Origin: Octopus vulgaris
Lineage: Eukaryota
Length of the DNA: 64,000 bases
Reading direction: 5' to 3'
Assembly: GCA_951406725.2 (NCBI GenBank)
Contig: OX597832.1
Span: forward strand, 37,386,001-37,450,000
Shown: one piece after another, positions 2,612 to 56,687 of the stretch
Layout: every line of letters begins with the position of its first letter
Position numbering within the stretch: position 1 is the stretch's first letter
Notes under the pieces: model-generated
Seen by the model: only the letters and a program-made list of their open reading frames with translations
Databases searched by the model: none
Told to the model about the DNA's origin: nothing
Translations under genes and position numbers: made by a program

Positions 2612-2801
2612 GTTTTTTCTCTATCTCCTGTTGCCCGCTTTGGGATCTTTCTTTCCTCTCTCTTCCTTCTTTATGTTTCCGACGAAGAGCTCCGCTCGAA
2701 ACGTCATACCTTCCTGCTTCCATTTCCTGAGCGCCTATTAATAATAATACTGTAATTGTTCCATTGTTGTTGTTTTTTTGTTTTCCCGTTTGGATTAAAA
2801 T
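2612..2801 (+). mobile_element. Short PLE-derived element carrying a hammerhead (family A, copy 1)
   Basis: Pyrimidine-rich leader, hammerhead, tttcctgagcg box, GT-rich tail ending in (TA)n. Homologous to four other copies in the window. Confidence 0.8.
2675..2709 (+). ncRNA. Type I hammerhead ribozyme motif, mutated (family A)
   Basis: gttt-CCGACGA-a-GAGC tcc GCTC-GAA-ACGT-C-atac. U4>C in the core and one stem I mismatch. Confidence 0.7.
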
Positions 2802-3490
2802 TATATATATATATATATATATATATATATATATATATATATATAGATAGATAGATAAATATATGTGTGTGAGTCTGTTTGTGTGTTTGTGTTTTTGTGT
2901 GTGTGTGTGTGTGCATAATGTAGGTAAAACGCAAGCTGCGTTCTCTAAAAATACATCTGCTTATTCCAGTATTGCAATCCTGTACGTAGATGCAGTCCTT
3001 GTTGCACTGATGATGTTCGGTACGGATTAGAGTTGAAGATTCTGGAAATATTGATTTCTCCGTCTGAAGAATTTTTTAACAGGAAATGCTTTACATGTTT
3101 ATCAAACTTGTGAAACTTTGCAATTCCTATTACCACATGAAACATGTGTAATGATGAATGATTGATACTAAAAAATGTCCAACTTCCTGTTTTGTTACAT
3201 GCACACACACGCACACACACACACACACACACACACATACACACACACACACACACACACACATACACACACATACACATATTAAAAGACTAAGGGAGTG
3301 GGTTTTTTTGTATTTGTAGCAACTCCAGTTGCTAACCGCGAACTATAAAGAAACAATCAGCTTATCGAATTTCCTCGTAACTTTGATATGGGGAAAGTGT
3401 GTAACCTTTGATGCCAATAATTTGTTATTGTTCCTTATCGTACACTATCCACTTGTTTTCCATATTTGCTAGGGACTACTTGAAGCTTAC

Positions 3491-3742
3491 AACCTTCCAG
3501 CATTTGGGTCCCTGGAGCAAACCCTTGCATATGCATACTCGTGGAATGAAATGTTGGGACACACCAGCAGATGGTGTTTTAACTTGCATCTGGCCTCCTT
3601 TCGCGGTATGGCCGCGGTGTTGACAAGCACAAAAACGGCGAAACATTAATGTATATCGCTCCTGCAACGAAACCTGGTGCGAATTATCTCGCTTCTCTAT
3701 GACTTCCAGCCGACGAATTGACGAGAATATATTCTCTTGCGC
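3491..3742 (-). other. Candidate exon, 252 nt, open in phase 0 (unassigned)
   Basis: ggttgtag|GCG...AAGGTT|gtaagc, encoding AQENIFSS...FCACQH...VCICKGLLQGPKCWKV. The acceptor is weak. An overlapping plus-strand candidate (3473-3605, tttgctag|...|gtatgg) is also open. Confidence 0.25.
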
Positions 3743-3989
3743 CTACAACCGCAGCCTACCCACGAACTGGCAAAACACATAACTTGTATATGTGTGTTCG
3801 ATATTGTATGTGTGTGTGCATGTGTATCTTGAACCCACAACATCTATAACGCATACATTCTACAATCTCCTAATCTGGATACATTCCACAATCTCCATAA
3901 CAGCTATACCCACTGCAATCACTATAATTTACCATAATGTCTGTTATTTTTAATTTTCTTTATTAATGAGATATTATCAAATCATATCT

Positions 3990-4630
3990 CATTTGTAGTG
4001 ACCCTGATGGTGAGTTGGCGGTTGTGGTGGAGATGGTAGTGCTGGGGCTGGTTCCGGTGAGGCTGAAGGTGGTGATGGTGGTAGTGGTGGTGTTTCTGGT
4101 AGTAGGAGTGGTGGAGATGGCGGCGACGGCGGCGTGGTGGTGGCGATAGTAGTGGTAATTGTATTGATGGTGACGCATGTGATAGCTGGTGGTGAATTTT
4201 GGTGGTAGTGGTGGTGGTGAATTGTGGGTGTAGCAGTGGGAACGGTGGTGAATAGTGGTGGGTGGGGTTGTTAGTGGTTATGGGGTGGGTGGGGGTGTAG
4301 GGTTTATTGTCATAATGACTTCATTGGATTTTAAGTGTTATTGTTTGATTGCAGTGGTAATAACAATGGCTGTGGTTGCAGTGAAGGTGGTAGTATTTGG
4401 GGGGTAGTGATGATGGTGGGGATGGTAGTGGTGGTGCTGGTACCGGAGGTTGGTGGTTATTGCGATCGTACTGGTAGTAGCGATGAAACTGGTGTTGGTG
4501 GTAGTTGTGGTGGTGGTGGTGGTGGTCCATGGTGCTGCAGTTTCGTATCATGGTGGTCACACTGACCATAGCAGGGGGCCGCTGGGGATGTGGAAATGGT
4601 GATGATGGTTGTGGTGGTTTGTGTTTAGGT
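3990..4630. repeat. Degenerate (GGT)n low-complexity region
   Basis: GGT/GTG-rich triplet runs. The ORFs here are compositional. Confidence 0.85.
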
Positions 4631-54039: not shown

Positions 54040-54885
54040 GAGAGTTTGGACGCAATAATGGGAATACCACTTTTTGTATTGGCAACATGACAAAATCAAA
54101 ACTGTTCTAGTCTGTATTTATCTGTTAATATGTATTATGAATGCCTTGAGCTTCATGATATTGCCCTCCGTTTTTTCTTTGCAGATATATGTATTTAAAG
54201 AAGTTATAATGCGTGACCTATCTGGTTTCAAAAGAGAGCGAATTATTGGAGCACCAGTGTGGTTCGAGCTTCAGTCACTAAAGCTGCTGAATTGTTTTAA
54301 GATTAGAGGAGCAATCTCTGACGTCCAAAGCCAAAGTAAGAACAGCTATGGCAGGCATAATTCTGCACGGATGGAAAAGTTCTTAGAGAAGGATCACAGA
54401 ATAGGGAAATATATGGTGTCTAGGAAACAAAACCATTGAACGATGGTTGCAAAAATGACACCTGAGTTGAAGAACCAGCTAGCCAACCTCATGAGAACCA
54501 AGATTCAATAATGCACTTATTCACTCGGTTTTTGTTATTCAAAATCGAGGTAAAGAGAACAAAAGCGACGTGGACCACAACCATAAAAAAAAAAGAAAAG
54601 AATTCCCCCTTTCCCAATCAACATATCTCAATATAATCGATCATTTATGGTGCATTTTGGAGCAGCTAATCAGAAGTCGCTTCTCTCTTCAGACATCGCT
54701 AAAAGAACTAAAGCAAGTTTTACTTGAAGTAGGGCTCAAAATTCCTTTAACAACCGTTCAGCACCATAATGAGTCAATTCCTCGACATATTAAATCTGTG
54801 TTTGATGCCAAGAGTGGACCAACGCCATACTGAATAATAAAACTTCCGTTTAACTAAGGGTTCCCATTTTTCTACCCAAACTCTG
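54040..54885 (+). mobile_element. Internally deleted, decayed Tc1-like transposon with both TIRs
   Basis: TIRs gagagtttggacgcaataatgggaa and ttcccatttttctacccaaactctg|ta. Coding remnants MRDLSGFKRERIIGA and LNIIDHLWCILEQ...ESIPRHIKSVFDAKSGPTPY. Confidence 0.88.
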
Positions 54886-55439
54886 TATGTACCTATGTTT
54901 ATAGACATATGCATTCATTGGTATAATATTCCATATACTGAAATATATACACATGTAATTAAATACACACACACATGTGTGTATATAAGCATAAATATGT
55001 GTATGTACATATCTGTGCGTATGTGTATAAGTGCGTGTAAGACTGCGTTTATTGATGCGTACATATTTATAAGTTTTAATAAATTTCACAGATTATTTGG
55101 AAGACGTACGATTCTTCTATGTTATCTTATAATTAGCGACAATTGTACTGTCACATGTTCTACGGCTAATCCACACCTAGCTTTTGTCGGGGCAAATGAT
55201 AGTTGTACTTGGAAAGTGAAATGCATTCAAATAATGTAGTAAAGATTCACGTTTGATTTCTTCGAACTATTTTGAGATTGTTTTTTGAAATGGTAAAGCA
55301 ACAAAACTTTATGGTTCCTGTGGAGCCGTTTTTAGATTCAGAAACAAAAGGAAGATGAGTATGCTAAATACACCGAAGGAAACGTTGGTGGAGATAATAA
55401 ATGGCGATGTTTTGAGACTTGAGTAAAACACAACTAATT

Positions 55440-55760
55440 TGTGCTATGTCAATACAGACACTGCTTAACCAAAATGAAATTATATCGTCTACTCTCTCTC
55501 TCATTTTCTGTACACTGGTCAAACTGGCCGGCTTTAGGAGTCCGGTTTGCCGAATATCTCTGGGATATCAGACTCGGCAAGGACACTCCGGTCTCGCGCC
55601 ACTTCCACTCGACTGGTCACTTCCTGCAACGTCTGTCTGTAATCGGACTGGCCTTGCACAGAAGCTACCCGGACTCCCGCCTCTTTCGAGAGTAAGGTTT
55701 ATTTTCTCTCCCCATTCCTCAATCCCTCATAACCACAATTCTTCACACCCCTTGGTCTAA
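55440..55760 (+). mobile_element. Decayed PLE GIY-YIG fragment, same family as 42950-43432
   Basis: LYTGQTGR...RFAEYLWDIRLGKDTPVSRHFHSTGHFLQRLSVIGLALHR. Confidence 0.9.
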
Positions 55761-56501
55761 ACCCACCTCTACACATATTTATAGGCACTACACACCTAAA
55801 TTCCACTACTCCTCCACATCACATTCTCTACACCGTTATACTCATTACACATACTGTACACACCATTATTCTCCTACAACATAAATACACACGTACACAC
55901 ACGCATACACACATACACACTATTTCCCACTCCACACACACACAAGCACACGCACTCCCATTTATCCTTTAAGTTTAGTAAATGTATATAGTCACGTAAA
56001 CACACCTCCCAGCCCCTAGGCCCTATTCCACCTCGAACTTCCATCCATGACGACCCACAACCCCCCTCACAACACATATACGTCAGATATCCTCACTCAC
56101 ACACAAGCGCTCTTACACACGCACATACACAGAATGTACAAACATATCAGCTTCATATACACACTATATCCAATAGCCCCATATACACACACACCAACTG
56201 ATAACAGGGACACTCATATTCGCTCACATACATACATACACATAAATGTACACAGTATTCACACATAAACGCACGTAACTTACATGCACACAATAATGTC
56301 ACACACATGCACTTCCACGCACACACATATACAACAGGATTCTTTCAGTTTTCATCTACCAAAGTCACTCAAAAGGCTTTGGTCGGCCCGAGGTTTGTCC
56401 AAAGTGTCCCGCAGTGGGACTGGACCCAGAACCATGTGGAAGCAAACTTCTTACCATTCCTCAGTTACGCCTGTGCCTATGCCACATCAGCGCCTCAAAA
56501 T

Positions 56502-56687
56502 GTAACCACATGTGAATCGTTGGCGATTTTCTTCCTACGTCTTCGCTTCTATTGGACTTTCCTGTGTTTCTGAAGAAGAGCGTCTGCTCGAAACGTTAAA
56601 CCATCTTTGCTTTCCTGAGCGTCTGCTAATACATTACAGGCACTACGTCCTCGCGTTGTTGTTTTTTGTTTTGTGTTTTTGGGACTT
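56502..56687 (+). mobile_element. PLE terminal segment carrying a hammerhead (family A, copy 5)
   Basis: Same strand as, and about 750 bp downstream of, the GIY-YIG remnant at 55440. Separated by a CA-rich tract and a SINE (56335-56480). Confidence 0.85.
56566..56601 (+). ncRNA. Type I hammerhead ribozyme motif, core intact (family A)
   Basis: gttt-CTGAAGA-a-GAGC gtct GCTC-GAA-ACGT-T-aaac. Confidence 0.85.

What the first reader, a model, noticed from the sequence alone, without database searches (positions are those of the whole stretch)
2675..56601. High-copy family of short (~200 bp) hammerhead-bearing elements: five copies in 64 kb with structural covariation
Seen: motifs at 2675-2709(+), 17318-17352(-), 40012-40046(-), 49064-49099(+) and 56566-56601(+) all read stemI-CUGANGA-a-GAGC[loop]GCUC-GAA-ANGU-H-stemI', two of them with one core substitution. 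Stem II is invariant while its loop varies (UCC, UUU, GUAG, GUCU). Stem I changes compensatorily (guuu/aaac vs cuuu/aaag). Two copies (40012, 56566) have a fully intact core. Known: Penelope-like elements carry minimal type I hammerheads whose palindromic stem III is thought to form in dimers. Inference: these are dispersed PLE terminal segments or a non-autonomous, retrozyme-like family. At this density they would be very numerous genome-wide and could cleave host pre-mRNA introns.
Basis: partly seen in the sequence, partly recalled or inferred. Interest (0 to 1): 0.8.

Follow-up and report, generated by a model that had tools for sequence, protein, structure and literature searches.

The report
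Jumping-gene hammerheads with altered catalytic cores
The five motifs are the tail ends of Penelope-like jumping genes, and the two lineages with intact, nearly identical full-length copies carry a changed letter in the ribozyme's catalytic core, which likely weakens self-cutting and would give a natural test of whether these elements need to cut their RNA.

Summary
All five motifs are real. They are 3' pseudo-LTR ends of 5'-truncated Penelope-like retrotransposons (RT, CX4CX2C linker, GIY-YIG), ending about 100 nt past the predicted cut site in TA-type repeats, not retrozymes. The minimal hammerhead is a known kind (PMC4209133). The two 'substituted' copies are not decay: exact matches genome-wide are canonical 5,397, U4C 9,685, A6U 20,934, against 1,162 for all changes at C3. 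Both lineages with intact, about 99% identical full-length copies carry a variant core: C4 in 15 of 16 loci, U6 in 46 of 47. Stem I and the other core letters stay fixed between lineages while N7 and N17 vary; single copies decay like their flanks, and 5' ends do not pile up at the cut site (26 against 50). Best reading: a weakened ribozyme that insertion does not need. No cleavage or RNA-end data. The scan noted a different core variant (U3-A8) on other DNA (e1-7786987).

The parts
2613..2803 (+). 3' pseudo-LTR end of the youngest U4C subfamily, followed by (TA)n
   Evidence: 96-97% identical to the end of full-length locus L133
2675..2709 (+). Minimal hammerhead, core CCGACGA (U4C), triplet GUC, stem I with a U-U mismatch; predicted cut after 2705
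17204..17563 (-). 3' end of an older subfamily (UUU loop) with part of the CA-rich 3' UTR; outer limits partly by eye
17318..17352 (-). Minimal hammerhead, canonical core, triplet GUA, stem III AUGU; predicted cut after 17322
39911..40125 (-). 3' end of the older canonical-core UCC-loop subfamily between TA-rich tracts
40012..40046 (-). Minimal hammerhead, canonical core, triplet GUU; predicted cut after 40016
42950..43432 (-). Orphan GIY-YIG C-terminal fragment of the GUAG-loop (A6U) lineage; its own hammerhead end is not in the window
   Evidence: 83.7% to L252 over 504 bases
48987..49185 (+). 3' end of a GUAG-loop (A6U) subfamily between (TA)n tracts
49064..49099 (+). Minimal hammerhead, core CUGUAGA (A6U), triplet GUA, stem III AGGU (private change); predicted cut after 49095
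55534..56690 (+). About 1.15 kb 5'-truncated element: GIY-YIG remnant 55534-55692, CA-rich 3' UTR, an unrelated repeat inserted at about 56335-56495 (by eye), pseudo-LTR end
   Evidence: tblastn E 1.8e-7
56566..56601 (+). Minimal hammerhead, canonical core letters, triplet GUU; predicted cut after 56597; sits among C4-bearing relatives in the flank tree, so its U4 may be a CpG reversion

Best explanation
The five motifs are 3' ends of 5'-truncated Penelope-like retrotransposons, and the hammerhead they carry is likely a slow ribozyme that insertion does not need and that the U4C and A6U core changes of the two intact lineages likely weaken further. Shown: full-length parents (about 6.2 kb and 4.5 kb units, one RT + GIY-YIG frame, a hammerhead in each pseudo-LTR), a fixed 3' end about 100 nt past the predicted cut site, TA-type repeats at that end, variable 5' ends, and the variant cores fixed in the intact lineages. 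Inferred: the endonuclease nicks (TA)n, reverse transcription starts about 100 nt downstream of the hammerhead and must read through the cut site, so every copy that holds the motif came from uncut (or re-joined) RNA; slower cutting would therefore cost little or help. Inferred: residual cutting, in a dimer through the ACGU palindrome and probably helped by the element's protein, keeps the rest of the fold under selection in parent lineages, while inserted copies decay.
For: Link to coding elements. Counts: against baselines C3 changed 1,162 and G17 534. Flank-anchored searches that leave the core free: U6 in 30 of 30 stored and 96 of the 100 listed GUAG-lineage copies, A6 in none; C4 in 71 and U4 in 28 of 100 listed UCC-lineage copies; other core positions show only scattered, mostly CpG, changes while N7 and N17 vary (the counts of 100 are by eye). 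On a tree built from flanks only (201 copies) the six inner stem I columns have 1 internal-branch change against 2.78 per flank column, and the outer pair runs G-C 74, C-G 62, G-U 31, A-U 9. No excess of 5' ends at the cut site: 26 against 50 at a matched point upstream. Print: catalytic mutants of a PLE hammerhead do not change insertion in vitro, it cuts only with the PLE protein, and no RNA-seq reads end at the site (PMC11167929); U4C lowers activity but supports viroid infectivity, A6C cuts at under 0.1 per min (PMC3088659); CUGA-turn mutants have low activity (PMC9901934).
Against: No cleavage was measured and no RNA ends were seen. The youngest U4C subfamily also has a U-U mismatch in stem I and folds as a rod with C17 paired, and a small canonical-core subfamily with G17 amplified: both fit loss of catalysis rather than attenuation. 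The zero changes in core columns are circular, since most copies were picked by those letters; only stem I and the flank-anchored sets are unbiased. One intact element (L131) has U4 in both pseudo-LTRs, so the canonical letter is compatible with mobility. The order of events rests on a midpoint-rooted tree of about 130 flank columns; C4 creates a CpG, so some U4 copies are revertants. Activity 'now' is inferred from 99% identity and open frames only.
Confidence: 0.55

Rival explanations
1. Same elements, but in the U4C and A6U lineages the hammerhead no longer cuts at all; the fold is kept as a binding or positioning signal for the element's protein (for example to place the internal start of reverse transcription about 100 nt downstream).
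For: U4 and A6 lie in the CUGA turn where mutants are poorly active; stem I mismatch in the youngest subfamily and rod-like folds; G17 subfamily; A6U ranks 3rd-4th of 33 core substitutions for stabilising the monomer in GUAG-lineage contexts; no 5'-end footprint; insertion independent of catalysis in vitro.
Against: Variation between lineages follows ribozyme rules: N7 takes all four letters, N17 is G in only 534 matches against about 36,000, and C3, G5, G8, A9, G12-A14 stay put in flank-anchored sets. U4C ranks 22nd of 33 for stability in its own context. A third young family keeps the 3-8 pair by the U3-A8 swap.
Confidence: 0.28
2. The variant cores are fully functional in their natural setting (dimer plus the element's protein), and cleavage trims tandem transcripts to unit length as proposed for other PLEs; the substitutions are neutral.
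For: Strong constraint on the rest of the fold; tandem array with about 6.2 kb spacing and a hammerhead per unit; protein-dependent cutting of a PLE hammerhead; U4C tolerated in a viroid.
Against: Both positions are strongly conserved in known hammerheads and mutants are weak; none of 13 long copies lacking an upstream hammerhead begins at the cut site; no pile-up of 5' ends.
Confidence: 0.12
3. A non-autonomous retrozyme or SINE-like family of about 200 nt that spreads as its own (circular) RNA.
For: Most copies are short and lack coding sequence: only 6 of 90 sampled show a same-strand RT or GIY-YIG remnant within 1.5 kb upstream. A preprint derives animal retrozymes from PLE pseudo-LTRs.
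Against: No tandem monomers (6 of 90 with a same-strand neighbour, irregular spacing); no defined 5' end; window copy 2613-2803 is 96-97% identical to the end of a full-length element.
Confidence: 0.03
4. Individual copies are kept by the host as intronic ribozymes that cut pre-mRNA.
For: Three window copies have canonical core letters; tens of thousands of copies make some intronic sense insertions certain (inference).
Against: Core and stem II change in copies at 13 of 329 non-CpG sites against 176 of 2,894 in flanks (p = 0.14), 13 of 22 cores intact; equal numbers on both strands of the assembly say nothing either way; no host gene identified in the window.
Confidence: 0.02

Closest known systems
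Minimal type I hammerheads in pseudo-LTRs of metazoan Penelope-like elements (Cervera and De la Pena 2014, PMC4209133)
   Same: CUGANGA plus one extra base, G10.1-C11.1, GAAA, palindromic stem III, short stem I, U-rich 5' flank, mostly solitary copies from truncated elements, pair in the two repeats of full elements
   Different: Their consensus has U4 and A6; the only core change in the parts I read is U3-A8. Here 85% of exact matches and both intact lineages have U4C or A6U.
Neptune / Nematis clades of C-terminal EN+ Penelope-like elements (Craig et al. 2021, PMC8557442)
   Same: One frame with DKG, YIDD, CX4CX2C linker, GIY-YIG with CCHH-type residues; (TA)n targets; partial tandems and inverted neighbours
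   Different: Clade not placed on a tree with named references; long CA-rich 3' UTR (0.5-2.9 kb); paper states canonical hammerheads are universal in these PLEs
PAc (Poseidon) element of Anolis, in vitro (Frangieh et al. 2024, PMC11167929)
   Same: Fixed end about 100 nt downstream of the hammerhead, AT-rich target, template that spans the cut site
   Different: Different clade; canonical core overlapping the start codon; here the motif lies well upstream of the frame and the core is altered in nature
Natural hammerhead core variants (Perreault et al. 2011, PMC3088659)
   Same: U4C (viroid) and a change at A6 (A6C, phage Bcep176) occur in nature with low activity
   Different: Reported as rare single cases; A6U not in the passages read; here about 9,700 and 20,900 exact copies
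Non-LTR retrozymes (bioRxiv 10.64898/2026.07.22.740005)
   Same: Type I hammerhead related to PLE pseudo-LTRs
   Different: Defined by tandem monomers each with a hammerhead; not met here

Membership tests
EN+ Penelope-like element | Single frame with PLE-type RT and C-terminal GIY-YIG | tested here: met
   L133 1008-aa open frame, DKG and YIDD, GIY-YIG motif; Pfam RVT_1 E 0.002 and GIY-YIG E 0.015, both under cut-off; 671 homologues at E<=1e-20 among 7,996 scored, with RVT_1 domains
EN+ Penelope-like element | Pseudo-LTRs from partial tandem structure, hammerhead in each | tested here: met
   Same end before and after the frame in L131, L133-137, L140, L144, L146 and L248, 249, 251, 252, 254, 255, 257; three-unit array L141-143
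Neptune or Nematis clade | CX2-5CXXC linker between RT and EN; CCHH residues in EN; (TA)n target | tested here: met
   CSRSRCNTC and CSRPRCRTC; EH and RHF histidines; TA-type repeat after 77 of 90 copies
Neptune or Nematis clade | Placement in an RT tree with named reference elements | not tested
   No named reference sequences were held; Neptune versus Nematis is not resolved
Minimal type I hammerhead | Stems I and II with covariation; palindromic stem III; extra base after A9 | tested here: met
   (15 hand-picked rows: 3 pairs change on both sides)
Minimal type I hammerhead | Canonical core C3 U4 G5 A6 N7 G8 A9, G12 A13 A14, A15.1-U16.1, H17 | tested here: not met
   Met in 3 of 5 window copies and 5,397 matches; not met in 2 of 5 and in 30,619 matches, including both intact lineages
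Minimal type I hammerhead | Self-cleavage after N17 as a dimer | not testable with these tools
   Needs an assay; only contigs of runs not on record as RNA were available
Non-LTR retrozyme | Head-to-tail monomers of defined length, each with a hammerhead | tested here: not met
   6 of 90 with a same-strand second motif within 1.5 kb, spacings 192-903; ragged 5' ends
Non-LTR retrozyme | Small circular RNA | not testable with these tools
   No raw RNA reads were offered

The most novel reading that the evidence does not exclude
In this animal genome the Penelope-like hammerhead has repeatedly (U4C in several lineages, A6U once) given up catalysis while its three-way fold stayed under selection, so the most successful lineages use a former ribozyme as a non-cutting RNA signal for their own reverse transcriptase; tens of thousands of such motifs would be invisible to standard hammerhead descriptors here and in other genomes.
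Probability: 0.28. Interest if true: 0.75.

Novelty: new variant of a known kind. Interest (0 to 1): 0.52.

Why it matters
What the hammerhead does for endonuclease-bearing Penelope-like elements is stated to be unclear (PMC8557442), and one in vitro study found it dispensable for insertion (PMC11167929). This genome holds matched natural series: older canonical-core subfamilies and younger, intact U4C and A6U subfamilies of the same lineages, plus a third family with the U3-A8 swap. Assaying these natural RNAs with and without their proteins would separate 'slow ribozyme', 'protein-rescued ribozyme' and 'dead fold used as a signal'. It also shows that descriptor searches demanding CUGANGA would miss about 85% of the motifs here.

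Tried and rejected
Rfam scan: swamped by microsatellite matches, no hammerhead in the 150 of 428 rows shown. First GIY-YIG search found a different 781-aa family whose ends lack this motif. RNA: no RNA holder listed; contigs of runs only guessed to be RNA cover both elements in pieces and cannot show ends, so they are no evidence on expression or cleavage. Idea that U4C and A6U both arose to stabilise one rod-like fold: A6U ranks 3-4 of 33 in GUAG contexts but U4C ranks 22 of 33 in the UCC context; rejected as a general explanation. Constraint test on core columns of the 201-copy tree is circular and not used. Footprint of cleavage in 5' ends: of 30 distinct loci in the list (by eye), 2 begin at the first base after the site, 16 within +1 to +7, 3 in the 18 bases upstream, the rest further downstream; the pattern favours downstream junctions, and the matched count (26 against 50) shows no spike; the control also takes in the youngest subfamily, which the test pattern does not. 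Host gene in the window: none in 36 of 113 frames scanned, one Mos1-type transposase HTH. Lunse et al. on PLE hammerhead dimers is not held, so I cannot say whether it lists these variants. Sequence and place look-ups in earlier findings were empty.
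Full report
Observation. The five motifs are at the stated places. A family pattern finds 3 with no mismatch and 5 with one, against 0 in 20 shuffled windows, and a profile of the element end finds exactly these five. Three have canonical core letters (17348-, 40042-, 56570+); 2679+ reads CCGACGA (U4C) and 49068+ reads CUGUAGA (A6U). 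The window lies in a 2.80 Gb genome, G000. That the host is an octopus is my guess from recall of such repeat landscapes; no call tested it.

What the copies are. In 30 loci picked by the canonical pattern, copies share a 3' end and have ragged 5' ends. Among 90 pattern-picked copies, 77 have a TA-type repeat 60-135 nt after the predicted cut site (median 101), and 6 have a second same-strand motif within 1.5 kb, at spacings of 192-903. Copies picked by an upstream 25-mer extend through a CA-rich tract to a GIY-YIG C-terminus. Searching with that piece gave many identical hits; 16 loci fetched for long open frames (three of them one tandem array) hold a unit of about 6.2 kb with a frame of about 1,008 codons and the hammerhead in the repeat on each side. 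Ten of them are 99.1-99.9% identical to L133 over the frame. The protein has DKG, YIDD, a CX4CX2C linker and a GIY-YIG domain with CCHH-type residues; Pfam scores are below cut-off; 671 homologues pass E 1e-20. These are the marks of Neptune or Nematis elements in PMC8557442 (passages); the clade was not placed on a tree. Window copy 2613-2803 is 96-97% identical to the end of L133, and copy 56570 has a GIY-YIG remnant at 55534-55692. Of the 90 copies, 6 show a same-strand coding remnant within 1.5 kb upstream. So the short elements are 3' ends of 5'-truncated insertions, not retrozymes.

The unexpected result. The hammerhead of the intact elements has C4 in 15 of 16 loci; L131 has U4 in both repeats. 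A second lineage (GUAG loop, unit about 4.5 kb, protein 68% identical over 724 residues, eight copies 98.7-99.7% identical to L252) has U6 in 46 of 47 loci picked by protein alone; the 47th has a deletion through the core. Exact genome counts are 5,397 canonical, 9,685 U4C and 20,934 A6U, controls 0: 85% non-canonical. For comparison all three changes at C3 together give 1,162, G17 534, and a changed second base of stem II 1,001. Searches anchored on flanks only give 20,439 GUAG-lineage matches (control 77) with U6 in 96 and A6 in 0 of the 100 listed, and 8,141 UCC-lineage matches with C4 in 71 and U4 in 28 of the 100 listed (counted by eye; script tallies of the 30 stored each). About two thirds of flank-anchored copies fit the exact pattern, so the family likely totals 50-60 thousand copies (inference). 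The window (5 in 64 kb) is about six times denser than the mean of 0.82.

History and constraint. A tree from flanks only (201 copies; 30 loci picked for a stem II change were left out and the protein-picked young A6U set thinned to 8) shows a ladder from U4 to C4 in the UCC lineage, C4 also in other lineages (3 internal-branch changes), and one internal change at position 6. It is midpoint-rooted and short, and C4 makes a CpG, so some U4 copies are revertants; 6 of the 71 C4 copies listed show the opposite-strand decay. Core columns in this tree were part of the search patterns, so their invariance is circular. Stem I was not: its six inner columns have 1 internal change against 2.78 per flank column, none in 8 columns within the GUAG lineage against 0.85, and the outer pair is G-C 74, C-G 62, G-U 31, A-U 9 of 201, paired in 179. 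Rare families have stem II GGAC/GUCC (pair counts on 15 hand-picked rows). N7 and N17 change often (8 and 10 internal changes). Inside copies there is no such protection: in 22 of 30 loci picked by the upstream 25-mer (8 dropped: other subfamily, truncated or duplicate), core and stem II differ at 13 of 329 non-CpG sites against 176 of 2,894 in flanks, p = 0.14, with 13 of 22 cores intact. Against strict catalysis: the one inner stem I change is a U-U mismatch in the youngest U4C subfamily, monomers and dimers fold as rods rather than hammerheads in 6 of 7 cases for the monomer, and a small G17 subfamily amplified.

Mechanism. Shown: fixed 3' end, TA target, variable 5' ends, tandem units. Inferred: nicking of (TA)n and reverse transcription from a fixed point about 100 nt past the hammerhead, as for the Anolis element (PMC11167929; part 1 of 4 and passages). 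A copy that holds the whole motif must come from RNA uncut at that site. If cut RNA were a common template, 5' ends would pile up at the site: 26 copies start there against 50 at a matched point just upstream of the motif, and none of 13 long copies without an upstream hammerhead starts at the site. In that paper catalytic mutants did not change insertion and the hammerhead cut only with protein. U4C lowers activity yet supports a viroid, and A6C is slow (PMC3088659, passages); CUGA-turn mutants are poorly active (PMC9901934, passages); minimal PLE hammerheads are weak even as dimers (PMC4209133, parts 1-2 of 4; PMC6765202, passages). I put the identity of the elements at about 0.95, and split the role of the variant motif as slow ribozyme 0.55, dead fold kept as a signal 0.28, fully active 0.12. 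RNA data were uninformative.

Known and new. PLE minimal hammerheads, their abundance as solitary copies and the U3-A8 variant are in print (PMC4209133). I found no paper holding three of the terms hammerhead, Penelope, A6U, U4C, CUGUNGA, CCGANGA; related searches are. One of that paper's supplementary files could not be searched and the searchable one gave a CUGANGAH consensus; Lunse et al. is not held (seen only as a citation); the retrozyme preprint was read in part 1 of 5 and its supplements are closed; any of these may list such variants. A repeat annotation of an octopus reports recently active Penelope families and does not mention hammerheads (PMC13282606, passages).

Verdict. Real; a known kind of motif in a known kind of element; new in that both intact lineages, and most copies, carry fixed non-canonical cores while the rest of the fold stays constrained. 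New variant of a known kind, interest 0.52.

Noticed in passing
L081-L096, L100 (e.g. L084 1141 and 5854 on +): A third young Penelope-like family (781-codon RT + GIY-YIG frame, 28% identical to L133) has an overlapping upstream frame of up to 479 codons and a hammerhead-like motif with the U3-A8 core in its terminal repeat, ending at (TA)n.
   Followed up: partly
L131 (minus strand 3649 and 9547): Intact member of the youngest U4C subfamily with U4 in both pseudo-LTRs, probably a CpG reversion in its parent; a natural canonical control.
   Followed up: partly
L335-L340: Small subfamily with canonical core but G at position 17, which should block cleavage; about a third of the 100 listed G17 matches.
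   Followed up: partly
L133 6876-9700: 3' UTR of 2.9 kb made mostly of degenerate CA-rich repeats with two GC-rich islands, one apparently self-complementary; such UTRs may be a source of CA-rich tracts in this genome.
   Followed up: no
L285, L308, L311, L312: Rare, old copies with stem II GGAC/GUCC, compensatory to GAGC/GCUC.
   Followed up: partly
window 57719-58189 (+): Mos1-type transposase HTH domain (PF17906, E 4.6e-14), a mariner remnant.
   Followed up: no
L193/L194, L154, L164/L165: Pairs of element ends in opposite orientation a few hundred bases apart, as described for PLE inverted insertions or nested insertion into the same TA tract.
   Followed up: no
window 18544-18875 and 37402-37718: CA-rich stretches about 67-70% alike to the 3' UTR of L133 without a hammerhead end; may be low-complexity matches.
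   Followed up: no
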